From IMG/VR virus record IMGVR_UViG_2660238444_000003, positions 1-26,369 of that record: DNA of 26,369 nt; one strand, written 5' to 3'. The first letter of the stretch is position 1, and each line of letters begins with the position of its first letter. Positions 5,851 through 8,840 of the stretch are shown here, piece after piece. Made by a program: the position numbers and the translations under genes. Source of the stretch: a virus. Lineage: Duplodnaviria; Heunggongvirae; Uroviricota; Caudoviricetes. Under the pieces are notes generated by a model. That model worked only from the letters and a program-made list of their open reading frames with translations. It ran no database searches and had not been told where the DNA came from.

Positions 5851-6477
5851 TTATTTTTTACGGACTGAGTTGTTCACTGCTCTGGCAATCTTCTCCCGCA
5901 ATTGCTGCGTTCCGTGGTACTGAACCGCAATATCTCTCAACTCGTTCACCAGTTCTCGAATCTGGTGATCTTTAAGCTCATTATTTGGGTGATTGGTAAC
6001 AACTCTGGTTAATTCACCCTTGTCTTTTGCTCTTACGTATGCAGCTCTTGTGCATTCGACCCATGTATTACCGCCTACATTAACTTCGTAGATTAGGCTG
6101 GACTTATCTGTCAATTCGGAACAAATACGGGCCGTGGTCTGGCAACTAGAGCATTCGCAGTTATCTCGGAAACCGTGATCTACCGGTCGAGAAAGAGGTT
6201 TAACTTTTTCATCCAACTTCATCACAGCATCGTGATAAGCGTTCCAGCCGTCATCTTTACCAAGTTGATAAATCTCTGAAGGCTCCATGTAGTCTATATC
6301 GCAACCTTCTTCATCCGATCTATCTGGTCGCTTCCCTGGTAATCGCTCATAAAAACGATTTCTGTCTCGACGTTCGGCTCTCAGTGCTAACGCAAGAAGT
6401 TGCTCAAGCGAGGTATTTGCACCAGCAATAATTTCATTGAGAATATCTTCTGTGAGATCTTTCGCTACCGTGCTCAT
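5851..6477 (-). CDS. Hypothetical protein (last gene of the early-left operon)
   Basis: 208-aa ORF; 4-nt overlap with the upstream gene; Cys-rich segment NCECSSCQ. Confidence 0.6.
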   Translation of the reverse strand: MSTVAKDLTEDILNEIIAGANTSLEQLLALALRAERRDRNRFYERLPGKRPDRSDEEGCDIDYMEPSEIYQLGKDDGWNAYHDAVMKLDEKVKPLSRPVDHGFRDNCECSSCQTTARICSELTDKSSLIYEVNVGGNTWVECTRAAYVRAKDKGELTRVVTNHPNNELKDHQIRELVNELRDIAVQYHGTQQLREKIARAVNNSVRKK

Positions 6478-6857
6478 TTATCTCTCTCAGTATGTTGCGA
6501 TGGCGTAAATTTGACGACATCAAATATTTTGGATGGCATCAACTTTATCCGCGAGCTTAGTTCGGCTCTCCTCTGTAATGCGGTTAATAATGTTTTCGTT
6601 CTGACGCCTTCGTGTATCCTCATCCCTGGCACAAGAACTACATCGCAGGGGAGATGCTCAGGTGACAAATCATTTTGGGCATCGCTAATCAGTCGTGTAA
6701 TCTCTCTTTCAAGCCGACCGCCTAGCTCTGTTTTAGTGCAATGTTCTGACCAATCGCCAGCCTCAAGCAGCGCGAGAATGCTTAAAATATCGTCCAATAG
6801 ATCAGTGGTATTATCGACTTCCTTCTGAAACTCACCGGCTACTGATTTATGCATCAT
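6474..6857 (-). CDS. Hypothetical protein
   Basis: 127-aa ORF, start/stop overlaps with both neighbours on the same strand. Confidence 0.6.
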   Translation of the reverse strand: MMHKSVAGEFQKEVDNTTDLLDDILSILALLEAGDWSEHCTKTELGGRLEREITRLISDAQNDLSPEHLPCDVVLVPGMRIHEGVRTKTLLTALQRRAELSSRIKLMPSKIFDVVKFTPSQHTERDK

Positions 6858-7933
6858 TCGTCATCCTCATCCGAGTCATCCTCATCACAGAATGAGAGTA
6901 GTGGGTTAGTCATTCGCCCTACTTGAGTGGCGTAGCCACGCCGACAGAGATTGCGCAGCACACTGTATATTTCGAACATCTCGGTTCGTTCATCGCCAAC
7001 ATCAAGCTCAGATGCTATAGCGTGGCATTCAGTCGCGAGAGCCGAAATTTTCTGAAATAACTCTGCATTATTCACTGTTCGACTCCTGCGGCGTTCTGGT
7101 AGTGGCATCCAGTGTGTGACATTGCTAATCAGACCATATTCATTAGTTTGAGGATGGTTGCCGTTATCGTCTCCGTATTTAAGACTCTCCATAAAGCCAT
7201 AATGCCTATCACCATTAACGCTCACAAAGCCGTAATAAGCAGGTATAACGCCGATCTCACACGTAACCAGTAAAGGAAAACTAGTTCTCCAATTTAGCTC
7301 GCCAATTACAGGCATTCGCTCACTACAGCTTATCCAACCATCCGGAGTCACCGGAAGCGAGAACGGCAGCACATCTCTGTGAACAAGTTTTTGCTGTGAC
7401 AGGTTATCCAGAACTTTCTGTACTGCTGCATCACCGAATACACCAAGCGCATCTGCCATAACTCCTACAACCTGATAAGCCTCAGCGCATACCGTGGATA
7501 AACCATCCGGAATTACCGGAGAGTTGCCGGGTTCTTTAATGTGCAAGCGAGGCTCACCATCTTTTGGTTCAGGCCACTGGCGCTCCATGTTGATCTTCAA
7601 TTTATCTTCCATAGCAGCGGTAATTTCAGCATCGCTGATGCCAGCACGGCGCTGTGCATCCCACAACAGAAACTGCATATCAGCCCACTCGCTAAGATCG
7701 TCTGGTTCGGCTGCGGCTTCCAGTGCCTCTTTTGAGAGGTGTTTCAGTGGACCAATGGGGCCAACGCAGCCAAATGTGGAGTCAGACCATTTGGCATGCT
7801 CGTGGCGAATCTGTTCGCGTTCCAGTGATGCCAGTGCAATTCGTGCCAGTTCCATTTGTTCGCCACGGGTAAGCCCGTTTTCAAGCGGGGATTTAATGAA
7901 CAATTCGATACGTTCTTTAGTGATAGTGCTCAT
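6854..7933 (-). CDS. Hypothetical early-region protein, possibly DUF551-type; acidic C-terminal tail
   Basis: 359-aa ORF; C-terminal region (WISCSERMP...THWMPLPE) resembles the DUF551 family as I recall it; ends DEDDSDEDDE. Confidence 0.65.
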   Translation of the reverse strand: MSTITKERIELFIKSPLENGLTRGEQMELARIALASLEREQIRHEHAKWSDSTFGCVGPIGPLKHLSKEALEAAAEPDDLSEWADMQFLLWDAQRRAGISDAEITAAMEDKLKINMERQWPEPKDGEPRLHIKEPGNSPVIPDGLSTVCAEAYQVVGVMADALGVFGDAAVQKVLDNLSQQKLVHRDVLPFSLPVTPDGWISCSERMPVIGELNWRTSFPLLVTCEIGVIPAYYGFVSVNGDRHYGFMESLKYGDDNGNHPQTNEYGLISNVTHWMPLPERRRSRTVNNAELFQKISALATECHAIASELDVGDERTEMFEIYSVLRNLCRRGYATQVGRMTNPLLSFCDEDDSDEDDE

Positions 7934-7934
7934 A

Positions 7935-8393
7935 TCACTCTCCTTTGATGCGAATGCCAGCTTCAGACATCATATGCAGATACTCAACTGCATCCTGAAC
8001 CCATTGACCGCCAATCCCGTAATAGCGATGCGTAATGATGTCGATAGTTACTAACGGGTCTTGTTCGATTAACTTCCGCAGAAACTCTTCCAGGTCACCA
8101 GTGCAGTGCTTGATTACCGGAGATTTCCCGGGGTGGCGAACAACAAGAAACTGATTTCCGTCTTCATGGACTTCGTTGCTTTCCAGTTCTGCAATACGCT
8201 TACTCCCATCCGAGATAACACCTTCGTAATACTCACGCTGCTCGTTGAGTTTTGATTCAAGTTCACCGAACTTACGGACAAGATATTCAGCGTTTGTTTC
8301 GTTAACCTTTAAATCACTTGGGATGCATTTACCTTTCAGAAAACCATCCATCTCAATTAGTGACATTTGTTTCATTTCTTCCCACTCCGCCAC
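7935..8393 (-). CDS. Hypothetical protein
   Basis: 152-aa ORF in the same operon; start codon uncertain (several in-frame Met). Confidence 0.55.
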
Positions 8394-8552
8394 ATTGCAT
8401 TCAGATATTTGTTGTCATTAACAGAGCCGAAACTATTTCTCTTAAGCAATTCCTCTCTCGATGGCATTGGCTTTATGCGTTGGCGAATAATCATTTCTGC
8501 CGGAAGAATGCCGGGATTGTATGCAAGTCCTCTCATGGTAAATTCCTCAGTC
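8372..8552 (-). CDS. Hypothetical small protein (about 60 aa), start inferred
   Basis: Internal ATG of ORF 8372..8686 that overlaps the stop of the upstream gene in an ATGA arrangement; [15 protein letters not shown]... Confidence 0.3.
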
Positions 8553-8840
8553 ATTACTGATAGCGCCATAGCGTGAGCGGTAATTACGCAGGCGCGGGTC
8601 AATTTCAGGGAAGTGGGTATATGTGGCTTTGCGGAATGGTCGGATTGATGTCTGGTAAATTCGCTCGCGTTCTTCTTTCTCTGCAAGCCATATACAATGG
8701 CGAAATTCCTTTTCCTCTTTCGTTTCCTGAGGTAGCGACATTATCCGGTTGTAGTTTTTCCTGAATTTATCCAGCACCTCCGATACAGAATTGCCGGAAC
8801 AGCGGCGCGCGTCGTCCGCACCATACAGAGGCGCTGGCAT
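8547..8840 (-). CDS. Hypothetical protein
   Basis: 97-aa ORF immediately downstream of the SSB-like gene on the same strand. Confidence 0.5.

What the first reader, a model, noticed from the sequence alone, without database searches (positions are those of the whole stretch)
5851..8840. Six-gene block of uncharacterised early genes at the distal end of the leftward operon
Six tightly packed genes (97, about 60, 152, 359, 127 and 208 aa) with overlapping start/stop codons follow the Erf/SSB genes on the same strand. Only the 359-aa protein has a tentative family resemblance (DUF551-like C-terminus with an acidic tail); the 208-aa protein has a Cys cluster (NCECSSCQ). Early-expressed accessory genes in this position are where lambdoid phages usually carry host-takeover and anti-defence functions.
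Basis: inference. Interest (0 to 1): 0.55.

Follow-up and report, generated by a model that had tools for sequence, protein, structure and literature searches.

The report
Mosaic early accessory genes of prophage
The six genes are real, but they form the ordinary, heavily shuffled accessory stretch of a P22-like prophage's early-left operon, and two of them (the RecBCD hijacker Abc2 and the lambda protein Ea22) are already well-studied proteins.

Summary
Six tightly packed minus-strand ORFs lie at 5851-8840, downstream of N, Erf and an SSB-like gene, in a P22-like prophage inserted at tRNA-Thr beside proA.

"Uncharacterised" is largely wrong:
- Gene 1 is Abc2, 87/97 identical to P22 Abc2 (PDB 8B1T).
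- Gene 2 is a 54-aa DUF2737 protein.
- Gene 3 is Ea22. Its C-terminal domain is 75/81 identical to the solved lambda Ea22 domain (8DSX).
It reads through into a 73-aa acidic module that is annotated elsewhere as a separate gene.
- Genes 5 and 6 (127 and 208 aa) have no assignable function. They are patchworks of portable 30-70-aa modules. Together with HumD and the intervening spacer, they are about 99.8% identical to a segment of ~110-kb E. coli phage-plasmids.

This is the known ea / exo-xis type of accessory region. The exact proteins are already in public databases, and no anti-defence role beyond Abc2 could be shown. Both structure predictions failed.

Side observation: the "non-coding" DNA just downstream (5378-5835) looks like an unannotated dinQ/agrB-like type I toxin-antitoxin cassette.

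Interest is low (0.2).

The parts
8547..8840 (-). abc2: anti-RecBCD protein 2 (97 aa)
   Evidence: Pfam PF11043 full length, 2.7e-62. phrog_656. 87/97 identical to P22 Abc2 chain 8B1T_A, with Pro68 kept.
8372..8536 (-). DUF2737 small basic protein (54 aa, pI 10.7), function unknown
   Evidence: PF10930 8e-30 and phrog_1117. Found in 258 phage records, all annotated as hypothetical or DUF2737. GAGG Shine-Dalgarno 9 nt before the ATG.
7935..8375 (-). ea22 (146 aa): EaE-like N-terminus, short coiled coil, lambda-type Ea22 C-terminal domain
   Evidence: Residues 66-146 are 75/81 identical to the lambda Ea22 CTD NMR structure 8DSX. The N-terminal 36 residues match HF4s EaE. Weak Pfam Ead_Ea22 hit below threshold. 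RefSeq names the near-identical protein in L001 'ead/Ea22-like'.
6854..7933 (-). 359-aa multi-module ORF: leader (1-41), dATP/dGTP pyrophosphohydrolase (42-137), linker, DUF551 (199-280), then read-through into a 73-aa acidic helical module (287-359)
   Evidence: PF04447 9.8e-42 and PF04448 2.2e-9. Weak alignment to MazZ 7ODY with EALE and EWAD motifs aligned. Identical protein P0220 is on 31 contigs. About 8000 DUF550-DUF551 relatives end at HWMPLPEPPQEVK.
6854..7075 (-). 73-aa acidic module (phrog_4220, pI 4.2) with its own AGGAG-N8-GTG start, in frame with the upstream DUF551 ORF
   Evidence: Annotated as a separate gene, WP_001718095.1, in phage-plasmids. phrog_4220 1.2e-38. It starts protein P0011. 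Sequence. AF2 predicts a two-helix hairpin, the only part at pLDDT about 80.
6474..6857 (-). 127-aa protein of unknown function: shared N-terminal module (1-61) plus a private C-terminal module
   Evidence: Only phrog_19524. No Pfam, NCBIfam, PDB or PADLOC hit. The N-terminal module is joined to DUF551, exoribonuclease or HTH domains in other proteins. Differences are mostly synonymous.
5851..6477 (-). 208-aa protein of unknown function: N-helix module, charged linker, Cys4 module (96-125), beta-hairpin/helix module (126-162), 36-aa helix module (167-203)
   Evidence: Only phrog_21749. Module sharing. 685 representative clusters match, almost all through residues 167-203. AF2 pLDDT 55, with only 131-160 confident.
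5809..5833 (.). G+C-rich hairpin 18 nt after the last stop codon. It marks the end of the block and is shared with the convergent small gene.
   Evidence: Conserved in L006-L010.

Best explanation
The block is the non-essential accessory segment of the pL (early-left) operon of a P22-like/lambdoid prophage integrated at tRNA-Thr next to proA. It is called the 'ea' region in P22 and the 'exo-xis' region in lambda.

Expression (inferred): the genes are transcribed from pL under N antitermination, and their overlapping stops and starts suggest translational coupling.

Per gene:
[quoted passage not shown] This was shown for the 90%-identical P22 protein and is inferred here.
- Ea22 is a coiled-coil oligomer with the lambda C-terminal domain, and it biases infection towards lysogeny. 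This is a phenotype shown for lambda and Phi24B; the mechanism is unknown.
- The 359-aa protein carries an all-alpha MazG/MazZ-type domain with the EXXE...EXXD metal-binding motifs. It most likely hydrolyses purine (d)NTPs to (d)NMP plus pyrophosphate. It is tethered to a DUF551 domain and, through read-through of a former gene boundary, to a small acidic helical module.
- DUF2737, the 127-aa protein and the 208-aa protein have no assignable function.

The 127- and 208-aa proteins are beads-on-a-string assemblies of portable 30-70-aa modules joined at recurrent linkers (NSPV[IT]PDGW, YTAPPAP). These modules recombine freely among P22-like phages, lambdoid phages and SSU5-like phage-plasmids.

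The distal half of the block, plus HumD and the spacer (about 4660-7343), is a recent import from, or exchange with, ~110-kb phage-plasmids.
For: Context:
- proB-proA-tRNA-Thr-int-xis...N-cI layout in the 99%-identical RefSeq locus.
- N, Erf and SSB upstream.
- Same gene order erf-ssb-abc2-Ea genes-xis-int in Lederbergvirus HF4s.

Gene identities.

Co-transcription: no promoter-like site and only one weak terminator-like site inside the block.

Mosaicism:
- 472 phage records and 3209 of 5426 E. coli genomes match parts of 5600-9000, but only 4 genomes match at least 80% of it.
- Module sharing is shown.

Phage-plasmid link:
- 99.8% identity over 5600-7343 to pCTX and relatives that carry metG/apbC and the identical HumD.
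- The intact 127+208 pair occurs in 79 genomes, mostly on non-mobilizable 106-115-kb plasmids.

Purifying selection.

Literature: Abc2-RecBCD structure (PMC9836394); Ea22 phenotype and structure (PMC7093339, PMC10834534); DUF550 as a MazZ-type dATP/dGTP pyrophosphohydrolase (PMC12884076); abc2 region treated as a counter-defence accessory region (bioRxiv 10.1101/2023.04.06.535777).
Against: - No expression or activity data exist for this locus.
- The pyrophosphohydrolase assignment rests on Pfam plus motifs. Identity to the solved MazZ is marginal (E 0.88), and characterised DUF550 enzymes come from Z-genome phages, which are very different.
- The Pfam Ead_Ea22 hit is below the gathering score (22.3 against 27 bits).
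- Functions of four gene products remain unassigned, so 'accessory region' describes the organisation rather than a mechanism for them.
- Whether the 359-aa fusion, the separate 73-aa product, or both are made is unknown.
Confidence: 0.8

Rival explanations
1. Counter-defence island. Besides Abc2, one or more of the unassigned products (DUF2737, the 73-aa acidic module, the 127-aa protein, the 208-aa protein, or the NTP pyrophosphohydrolase) inhibits a specific host defence system. It could act as a protein inhibitor or DNA mimic, or by destroying a nucleotide substrate or signal.
For: - The position is next to abc2, in a region used as a source of counter-defence genes (bioRxiv 10.1101/2023.04.06.535777).
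- The products are small and several are acidic: pI 4.2 for the 73-aa module and 4.8 for the 359-aa protein.
- Gene content is extremely variable between otherwise similar phages.
- The 36-aa helix module is about 80% identical across hundreds of different proteins, as expected for a piece that must fit a conserved partner.
Against: - No similarity to any named anti-defence protein in Pfam, PHROGs or NCBIfam, and no PADLOC hit.
- No structural lead, because the AF2 models were unusable.
- The only homologue with a tested phenotype, Ea22, affects the lysis-lysogeny decision and not defence.
- High module conservation can also come from recent recombination.
Confidence: 0.3
2. Developmental modulators. 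Like the lambda exo-xis genes, the unassigned genes tune the lysis-lysogeny decision or prophage induction rather than host defence.
For: - A true Ea22 is present, with a published pro-lysogenic effect (PMC7093339).
- Exo-xis genes as a group alter lysogenisation and induction (PMC7093339 introduction).
- An SOS-regulated HumD gene lies immediately downstream.
Against: None of the other exo-xis genes (orf60a, orf61, orf63, ea8.5) was detected in the block. The published effects are modest, and there is no evidence for the 127- or 208-aa proteins.
Confidence: 0.25
3. Decaying cargo. The distal ORFs are recombination debris, and the 359-aa ORF is an accidental gene fusion with no function.
For: - The 359-aa ORF runs through a former Shine-Dalgarno and GTG start.
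- PGAP marks the corresponding DUF551 piece as a pseudogene in the phage-plasmids.
- Fusions and splits of the same modules are frequent (P0010, P0011).
Against: - All six ORFs are intact and tightly coupled.
- Differences from diverged copies are mainly synonymous.
- The identical 359-aa protein recurs on 31 contigs.
- The catalytic motifs of the enzyme domain are intact.
Confidence: 0.1

Closest known systems
P22 abc2 / 'ea' region (Lederbergvirus early-left accessory genes eaA-eaI)
   Same: Same position between the recombination genes and xis-int, on the same strand. Abc2 is about 90% identical. The HF4s EaE N-terminus matches gene 3, and the HF4s EaA DUF551 part is 74% identical to gene 4.
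   Different: abc1 is absent and an SSB-like gene sits beside erf instead. The set of ea genes is different. The two distal genes are not P22 genes but are shared with phage-plasmids.
Lambda / Stx-phage exo-xis region (ea22, ea8.5, orf60a, orf61, orf63)
   Same: Equivalent location and early expression. Gene 3 carries the lambda Ea22 C-terminal domain at 93% identity. DUF551 also occurs in the Stx-phage Ea22 V2 variant (PMC10834534).
   Different: The other exo-xis genes were not found. The recombination module is Erf/SSB/Abc2 rather than Exo/Bet/Gam. The Ea22 coiled coil is much shorter (146 against 182 aa).
MazZ / DUF550 dATP-dGTP pyrophosphohydrolases of Z-genome phages (S-2L MazZ, SH-Ab 15497)
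   Same: Same Pfam family (PF04447, 141.6 bits). EXXE and EXXD motifs align with MazZ 7ODY.
   Different: This phage has no PurZ/DatZ context, so there is no 2-aminoadenine pathway. The domain is fused to a leader, DUF551 and an acidic module. Substrate and role are untested.
SSU5/pHCM2-like E. coli phage-plasmids (~106-115 kb, rep_cluster_488)
   Same: About 99.8% DNA identity over HumD, the spacer, the 208-aa gene, the 127-aa gene, the 73-aa module and the DUF551 remnant.
   Different: In the plasmids the DUF550 part is missing and DUF551 is a fragment. Some plasmids carry a toprim-domain gene in place of the spacer, and longer (271-284 aa) versions of the 208-aa protein.

Membership tests
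Abc2 (anti-RecBCD protein 2, PF11043) | Full-length sequence match to the family and to the P22 prototype | tested here: met
   Pfam 1-97 of 97, 207 bits against a cut-off of 25. 87/97 identical to 8B1T_A.
Abc2 (anti-RecBCD protein 2, PF11043) | Pro68, the residue that engages host PpiB in the RecBCD-Abc2 complex | tested here: met
   The IRPFRK motif is kept, with P at position 68. Its role is described in PMC9836394.
Abc2 (anti-RecBCD protein 2, PF11043) | Binds RecC and modifies RecBCD activity | not testable with these tools
   Needs biochemistry. Inferred from about 90% identity.
Ea22 (lambda exo-xis protein) | Lambda-type C-terminal domain (mixed alpha-beta dimer) | tested here: met
   Residues 66-146 against 8DSX: E 3.7e-48, 75/81 identical.
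Ea22 (lambda exo-xis protein) | Ead_Ea22 N-terminal and coiled-coil signature (PF13935) | tested here: inconclusive
   22.3 bits, below the cut-off of 27, and only the last 27 model positions align. The coiled-coil stretch is short (about residues 35-68).
Ea22 (lambda exo-xis protein) | Pro-lysogenic phenotype and tetramer formation | not testable with these tools
   Shown for lambda and Phi24B only (PMC7093339, PMC10834534).
dATP/dGTP pyrophosphohydrolase (PF04447, ex-DUF550; MazG-like all-alpha NTP-PPase) | Domain match above the curated threshold | tested here: met
   141.6 bits against 23; residues 42-137 cover 96 of 97 model positions.
dATP/dGTP pyrophosphohydrolase (PF04447, ex-DUF550; MazG-like all-alpha NTP-PPase) | EXXE ... 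EXXD acidic metal-binding motifs | tested here: met
   E-A-L-E and E-W-A-D are present and align to the EE..E and E-V-A-D of MazZ 7ODY. They are conserved in all DUF550 rows of alignment A3. The role of these motifs is from my own knowledge of the MazG superfamily.
dATP/dGTP pyrophosphohydrolase (PF04447, ex-DUF550; MazG-like all-alpha NTP-PPase) | All-alpha fold and hydrolysis of dATP/dGTP to dNMP plus PPi | tested here: inconclusive
   The AF2 model has pLDDT of about 30 over this domain, so the fold could not be checked. Activity is not testable here.
DUF551 (PF04448) | Domain match above the curated threshold | tested here: met
   38.5 bits against 22, residues 199-280. The PDGWISCSERMP...HWMPLPE motifs are conserved.
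DUF2737 (PF10930) | Domain match above the curated threshold | tested here: met
   102.9 bits against 25, 52 of 53 model positions.
Known anti-phage defence systems (PADLOC) | Any component model matched | tested here: not met
   No hits at E<=0.01 for any of the six proteins.
DinQ/Dql-AgrB type I toxin-antitoxin (side observation, 5378-5835) | AgrB-family sRNA | tested here: inconclusive
   Rfam RF02891 scores 27.6 bits, below the gathering score of 40, over the full model length. The architecture is the same, and stem pairs are kept by compensatory changes in 7 sequences.
DinQ/Dql-AgrB type I toxin-antitoxin (side observation, 5378-5835) | Small hydrophobic toxin matching DinQ/DqlB models | tested here: not met
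   No NCBIfam or Pfam hit at E<=10. Only the M[VI]NLL start resembles pOXA-48 DqlB.
DinQ/Dql-AgrB type I toxin-antitoxin (side observation, 5378-5835) | sRNA complementary to the 5' UTR of a divergently transcribed toxin mRNA | tested here: met
   20-nt complementarity (one G-U) between the minus-strand RNA (5464-5445) and plus-strand 5618-5637. Both copies change together in L008, L010 and L011.

The most novel reading that the evidence does not exclude
The ea-region proteins (the 127-aa and 208-aa proteins, the 73-aa acidic module and their hundreds of relatives) may form a polymorphic, module-swapping family. In this reading the invariant 36-aa helix module (MKDHQIRELVNELRDIAVEYHGTQQLRERIA) and the Cys4 module dock onto a conserved host factor, while variable modules supply different activities. 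That would make them a combinatorial host-takeover or counter-defence toolkit exchanged between P22-like phages, lambdoid phages and phage-plasmids. The distal segment (HumD, the type I toxin-antitoxin-like cassette, the 208-aa and 127-aa genes) would be a mobile SOS-linked island.
Probability: 0.12. Interest if true: 0.5.

Novelty: already known. Interest (0 to 1): 0.2.

Why it matters
It matters little as a discovery. It mainly corrects the annotation: two of the six 'unknown' genes are textbook proteins (Abc2, Ea22), and a third contains a recognisable nucleotide pyrophosphohydrolase.

Three points of modest value remain:
- The work documents how finely these early accessory proteins are shuffled, in modules of 30-70 aa, with gene fusions and splits at start/stop overlaps.
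- It shows a fresh exchange of about 2.7 kb between a chromosomal P22-like prophage and ~110-kb phage-plasmids.
- It flags four small products (DUF2737, the 73-aa acidic module, the 127-aa and 208-aa proteins) as reasonable but unproven candidates for anti-defence screens.

Tried and rejected
- AlphaFold2 on the 208-aa protein (alignment A1, mean pLDDT 54.9) and on the 359-aa protein (A3, mean pLDDT 45.0). Both were too poor to use, because the alignments are shallow and mosaic, so no fold search was run.
- PDB sequence searches for the 127-aa, 208-aa and DUF2737 proteins gave only chance-level hits.
- NCBIfam gave nothing for any of the six proteins. PADLOC gave nothing.
- The exhaustive representative search with the 208-aa protein found 685 clusters, but nearly all match through the 36-aa helix module. 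One apparent multi-repeat hit (P0358, 894 aa) is an unrelated helical-repeat ATPase.
- The 'ClpX C4-type zinc finger' annotation seen under one plasmid match belongs to a different gene that is absent from the window, not to the 208-aa Cys cluster.
- A simple one-base frameshift as the origin of the 359-aa fusion was rejected. Other variants (PLPEPPSRMVNNAAS*) show that the junction differs by an in-frame indel plus a frame change, so only 'read-through of a former gene boundary' is claimed.
- blastn of the spacer against E. coli genomes did not reach the chromosomal dinQ-agrB locus. The pOXA-48 agrB region itself gave no Rfam AgrB hit.
- My first fold_alignment of the sRNA used wrong coordinates for two loci and was repeated correctly.
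Full report
**Setting**

The window holds proB, proA and tRNA-Thr (2727-2799). These are followed by a prophage with this layout:
- integrase and excisionase;
- a HumD gene;
- the six-gene block;
- an SSB-like gene, Erf, several small genes and an N-like antiterminator;
- a cI-type repressor, then rightward replication, nin, Q, lysis and terminase genes.

A RefSeq E. coli chromosome (SB0258h1) carries the same prophage at 99% identity, at the same site, and has the same layout. Lederbergvirus HF4s has the same order: erf, ssb, abc2, Ea genes, xis, int. The block therefore lies in the N-dependent early-left (pL) operon of a P22-like/lambdoid prophage.

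**Observation**

Six minus-strand ORFs fill 5851-8840 with no gap longer than 10 nt. Four of the five junctions are overlapping or abutting stop/start codons: ATGA three times and TGAtATG once.

Two sizes need correcting:
- The second gene is 54 aa (8372-8536), because Pfam DUF2737 matches only the last 52 residues of the longer TTG ORF.
- The third gene most likely starts at the ATG at 8375 (146 aa). That start overlaps the preceding stop and matches the N-terminus of HF4s EaE.

Inside the block there is no promoter-like site and only one weak terminator-like site. A G+C-rich hairpin follows the last stop codon (5809-5833).

Every ORF belongs to a Pfam or PHROG family. For the two orphan genes, differences from diverged plasmid copies fall mainly on third codon positions. 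Examples are 11 synonymous against 4 non-synonymous codons, and 9 against 4. The ORFs are therefore real genes under purifying selection.

**What each gene is**

1. 8547-8840 is Abc2.
   - It matches Pfam Anti-RecBCD_p2 over its full length (2.7e-62).
   - It is 87/97 identical to the P22 protein solved on RecBCD (8B1T), including Pro68, which engages host PpiB (PMC9836394).
   - Here it sits next to Erf and an SSB-like protein. abc1 is absent.

2. 8372-8536 is a basic 54-aa DUF2737 protein (8e-30). It is present in 258 phage records, always without a function.

3. 7935-8375 is Ea22.
   - Residues 66-146 are 75/81 identical to the lambda Ea22 C-terminal domain solved by NMR (8DSX, E 3.7e-48).
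   - The N-terminal 36 residues are those of P22-like EaE proteins.
   - Between them is a short coiled-coil stretch. The Pfam Ead_Ea22 hit is below threshold.
   - Published deletions of ea22 in lambda and Phi24B lower lysogenisation. The mechanism is unknown (PMC7093339; PMC10834534).

4. 6854-7933 (359 aa) is a chain of modules:
   - a leader (MSTITKE...ELARIALASLE) shared with many ea proteins;
   - a dATP/dGTP pyrophosphohydrolase domain (PF04447, formerly DUF550; 9.8e-42; residues 42-137);
   - a linker;
   - DUF551 (199-280, 2.2e-9);
   - a 73-aa acidic tail module (phrog_4220, 1.2e-38).

   The enzyme domain keeps the EXXE (EALE) and EXXD (EWAD) motifs, which align with those of cyanophage MazZ (7ODY). 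DUF550 enzymes characterised in Z-genome phages convert dATP/dGTP to dNMP plus PPi (PMC12884076).

   About 8000 DUF550-DUF551 relatives were found. Those aligned in A3 (apart from P0231) are 228-296 aa long and stop just after HWMPLPEPP (e.g. PPQEVK, PPRLKEL). In the window the ORF continues HWMPLPERRRSRTV-NNAELFQ.... The DNA there reads gcAGGAGtcgaacaGTG, which is a Shine-Dalgarno sequence and a GTG start.

   The same 73 codons are annotated as a separate gene (WP_001718095.1) in phage-plasmids, and they begin protein P0011. The 359-aa ORF is therefore a read-through fusion across a former gene boundary. The 73-aa product may also be made on its own. The identical 359-aa protein is already known from 31 contigs (P0220).

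5 and 6. 6474-6857 (127 aa) and 5851-6477 (208 aa) match only PHROGs of unknown function. They have no Pfam, NCBIfam, PDB or PADLOC hit.

Homology searches show that both are patchworks:
- Residues 1-61 of the 127-aa protein recur at 95-97% identity in front of DUF551, a 3'-5' exoribonuclease domain or an HTH domain.
- The 208-aa protein consists of an N-terminal helix module, a charged linker, a Cys4 module, a beta-hairpin/helix module and a 36-aa helix module.
  - The Cys4 module is PVDHGFRDNCECSSCQTTARIC. It is also present in otherwise different Salmonella and Citrobacter proteins.
  - The 36-aa helix module is HQIRELVNELRDIAVQYHGTQQLREKIA.
- That 36-aa module is invariant at 14 positions in 45 aligned proteins. 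It can sit at the N-terminus, in the middle or at the C-terminus, and is sometimes duplicated.
- In an exhaustive search of 1.84 billion representatives, 685 clusters match the 208-aa protein, nearly all through this module.
- Other proteins fuse the same pieces differently. P0010 is the 127-aa N-terminus plus the 208-aa core. P0011 is the 73-aa module plus the 127-aa N-terminus plus the 208-aa core.
- Recurrent linkers (GNSPV[IT]PDGW, LYTAPPAP) mark the joints.

**Origin of the distal half**

Window 5600-7343 is 99.3-99.8% identical to ~106-115-kb non-mobilizable E. coli plasmids that carry metG and apbC (phage-plasmids; also phages Cyrano and CMS-2020a). These plasmids have the identical HumD protein, the same spacer, the 208- and 127-aa genes, the 73-aa gene and a DUF551 remnant.

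The intact 127+208 pair occurs in 79 of 5426 complete E. coli genomes, mostly on such plasmids. Parts of the whole block occur in 3209 genomes, but only 4 carry at least 80% of it. The nearest chromosomal relative has an extra DUF5405 gene between abc2 and DUF2737. This is classic lambdoid mosaicism, extended here to phage-plasmids.

**Mechanism: shown and inferred**

Shown by sequence and by comparison with solved or assayed homologues:
- the identities of Abc2 and Ea22;
- the NTP-pyrophosphohydrolase, DUF551 and DUF2737 domains;
- the operon-like packing;
- purifying selection;
- the modular architecture;
- the phage-plasmid relationship.

Inferred:
- pL/N-dependent early expression and translational coupling;
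- RecBCD hijacking by this Abc2;
- a pro-lysogenic role for this Ea22;
- purine-dNTP hydrolysis by the DUF550 domain.

Unknown: the roles of DUF2737, DUF551, the 73-aa acidic module and the 127- and 208-aa proteins.

A counter-defence role for some of these is plausible from position, size, acidity and variability. The abc2 region has been used as a source of counter-defence candidates. Nothing I could run supports that role directly.

**Dead ends**

Both AlphaFold2 runs gave unusable models (mean pLDDT 55 and 45). The only confident pieces were a beta-hairpin/helix at residues 131-160 of the 208-aa protein and a helical hairpin at residues 289-330 of the 359-aa protein. I therefore ran no fold searches.

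**Side observation outside the finding**

The roughly 800-bp 'non-coding' stretch between the block and humD is not empty.

- *Small ORF.* On the plus strand, 5712-5795 encodes MVNLLFKIVPPMFAIIKAIIEYVNQRP, with a GAGG Shine-Dalgarno. It is followed by the 5809-5833 hairpin. A diverged 89-kb plasmid encodes MVSLLLKILPPLVAIITTIIDYINKR at the same place, with 8 synonymous and 10 conservative codon changes and an AAGGAGG Shine-Dalgarno.
- *Small RNA.* On the minus strand, 5467-5378 has the form of an sRNA of about 85 nt that ends in a strong terminator. It gives a sub-threshold, full-length Rfam AgrB match (27.6 bits).
- *Complementarity.* The 5' 20 nt of the RNA are complementary to plus-strand 5618-5637, upstream of the small ORF. 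Both copies change together in Kluyvera, Enterobacter and plasmid homologues.
- *Structure.* Four stem pairs are kept by changes on both sides in seven sequences.

This is the layout of the DinQ/Dql-AgrB type I toxin-antitoxin family (PMC5066626; validated for pOXA-48 DqlB in PMC12365149). However, the peptide does not hit the DinQ/DqlB models and differs from pOXA-48 DqlB. It occurs in 94 plasmids and is never annotated.

Further downstream, humD (NF051876, 8e-66) has a perfect LexA box (5085-5066) overlapping its -10 element.

**Verdict**

The block is a known kind of phage accessory region made of known families, and the exact proteins are already in public databases. Interest is 0.2. The most novel reading not excluded is a combinatorial, module-swapping host-interaction toolkit, with probability of about 0.12.

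Noticed in passing
window 5378-5835 (both strands): Likely unannotated type I toxin-antitoxin cassette of dinQ/dql-agrB type. It has a 27-aa hydrophobic ORF (5712-5795, plus strand) and an sRNA of about 85 nt (5467-5378, minus strand; sub-threshold Rfam AgrB, 27.6 bits). The 5' 20 nt of the sRNA pair with the putative toxin 5' UTR (5618-5637). ORF, seed repeats and sRNA stems are conserved, with compensatory changes, in Escherichia, Kluyvera and Enterobacter. The peptide is not matched by the DinQ/DqlB models.
   Followed up: partly
window 4660-5110: humD (P1 HumD-family UmuD' analogue, NF051876 8e-66). A perfect LexA box, TACTGTATGTGTATACAGTA (5085-5066), overlaps the -10 of a promoter-like site. 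This is an SOS-controlled translesion-synthesis subunit gene inside a P22-like prophage, identical to the phage-plasmid copy (WP_000506720.1).
   Followed up: partly
window 3643-3675: A run of 33 N inside the integrase gene, flanked on both sides by the same 33-nt sequence (CGGCTCATTTCCCAGTTCAGGCGATGGCGGCGG). It looks like a masked stretch or an assembly join that duplicates 11 codons (RRHRLNWEMS...), not biology.
   Followed up: partly
window 4355-4675: A 106-aa ORF between humD and xis, with a strong terminator inside it (4648-4628). RefSeq marks the equivalent in L001 as a fragment missing its N-terminus. No family hit.
   Followed up: no
window 5995-6100 (residues 167-203 of the 208-aa protein); P0031, P0020, P0033 and others: A 36-aa helix module (MKDHQIRELVNELRDIAVEYHGTQQLRERIA) is kept at about 80% identity in 685 protein clusters of very different architecture. 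It occurs at any position and is sometimes duplicated. It is absent from Pfam.
   Followed up: partly
L004 758-1282 and L005 758-1282 (phage-plasmids): In some related phage-plasmids a 174-aa toprim-domain gene occupies the place of the toxin-antitoxin-like spacer between humD and the 208-aa-type gene. This suggests an exchangeable cassette site.
   Followed up: no
L001 8934-9215 versus window about 8537-8546: The closest chromosomal relative has an extra DUF5405 gene between abc2 and DUF2737, and a shorter (300-aa) version of the pyrophosphohydrolase gene with a pseudogene fragment upstream. These are indel-level differences between prophages that are otherwise 99% identical.
   Followed up: no
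L013 7400-8900 (pOXA-48): The experimentally validated agrB antitoxin region of pOXA-48 gives no Rfam AgrB hit at E<=0.1, whereas the window's sRNA does. The Rfam model therefore covers only part of the agrB-like RNAs.
   Followed up: no
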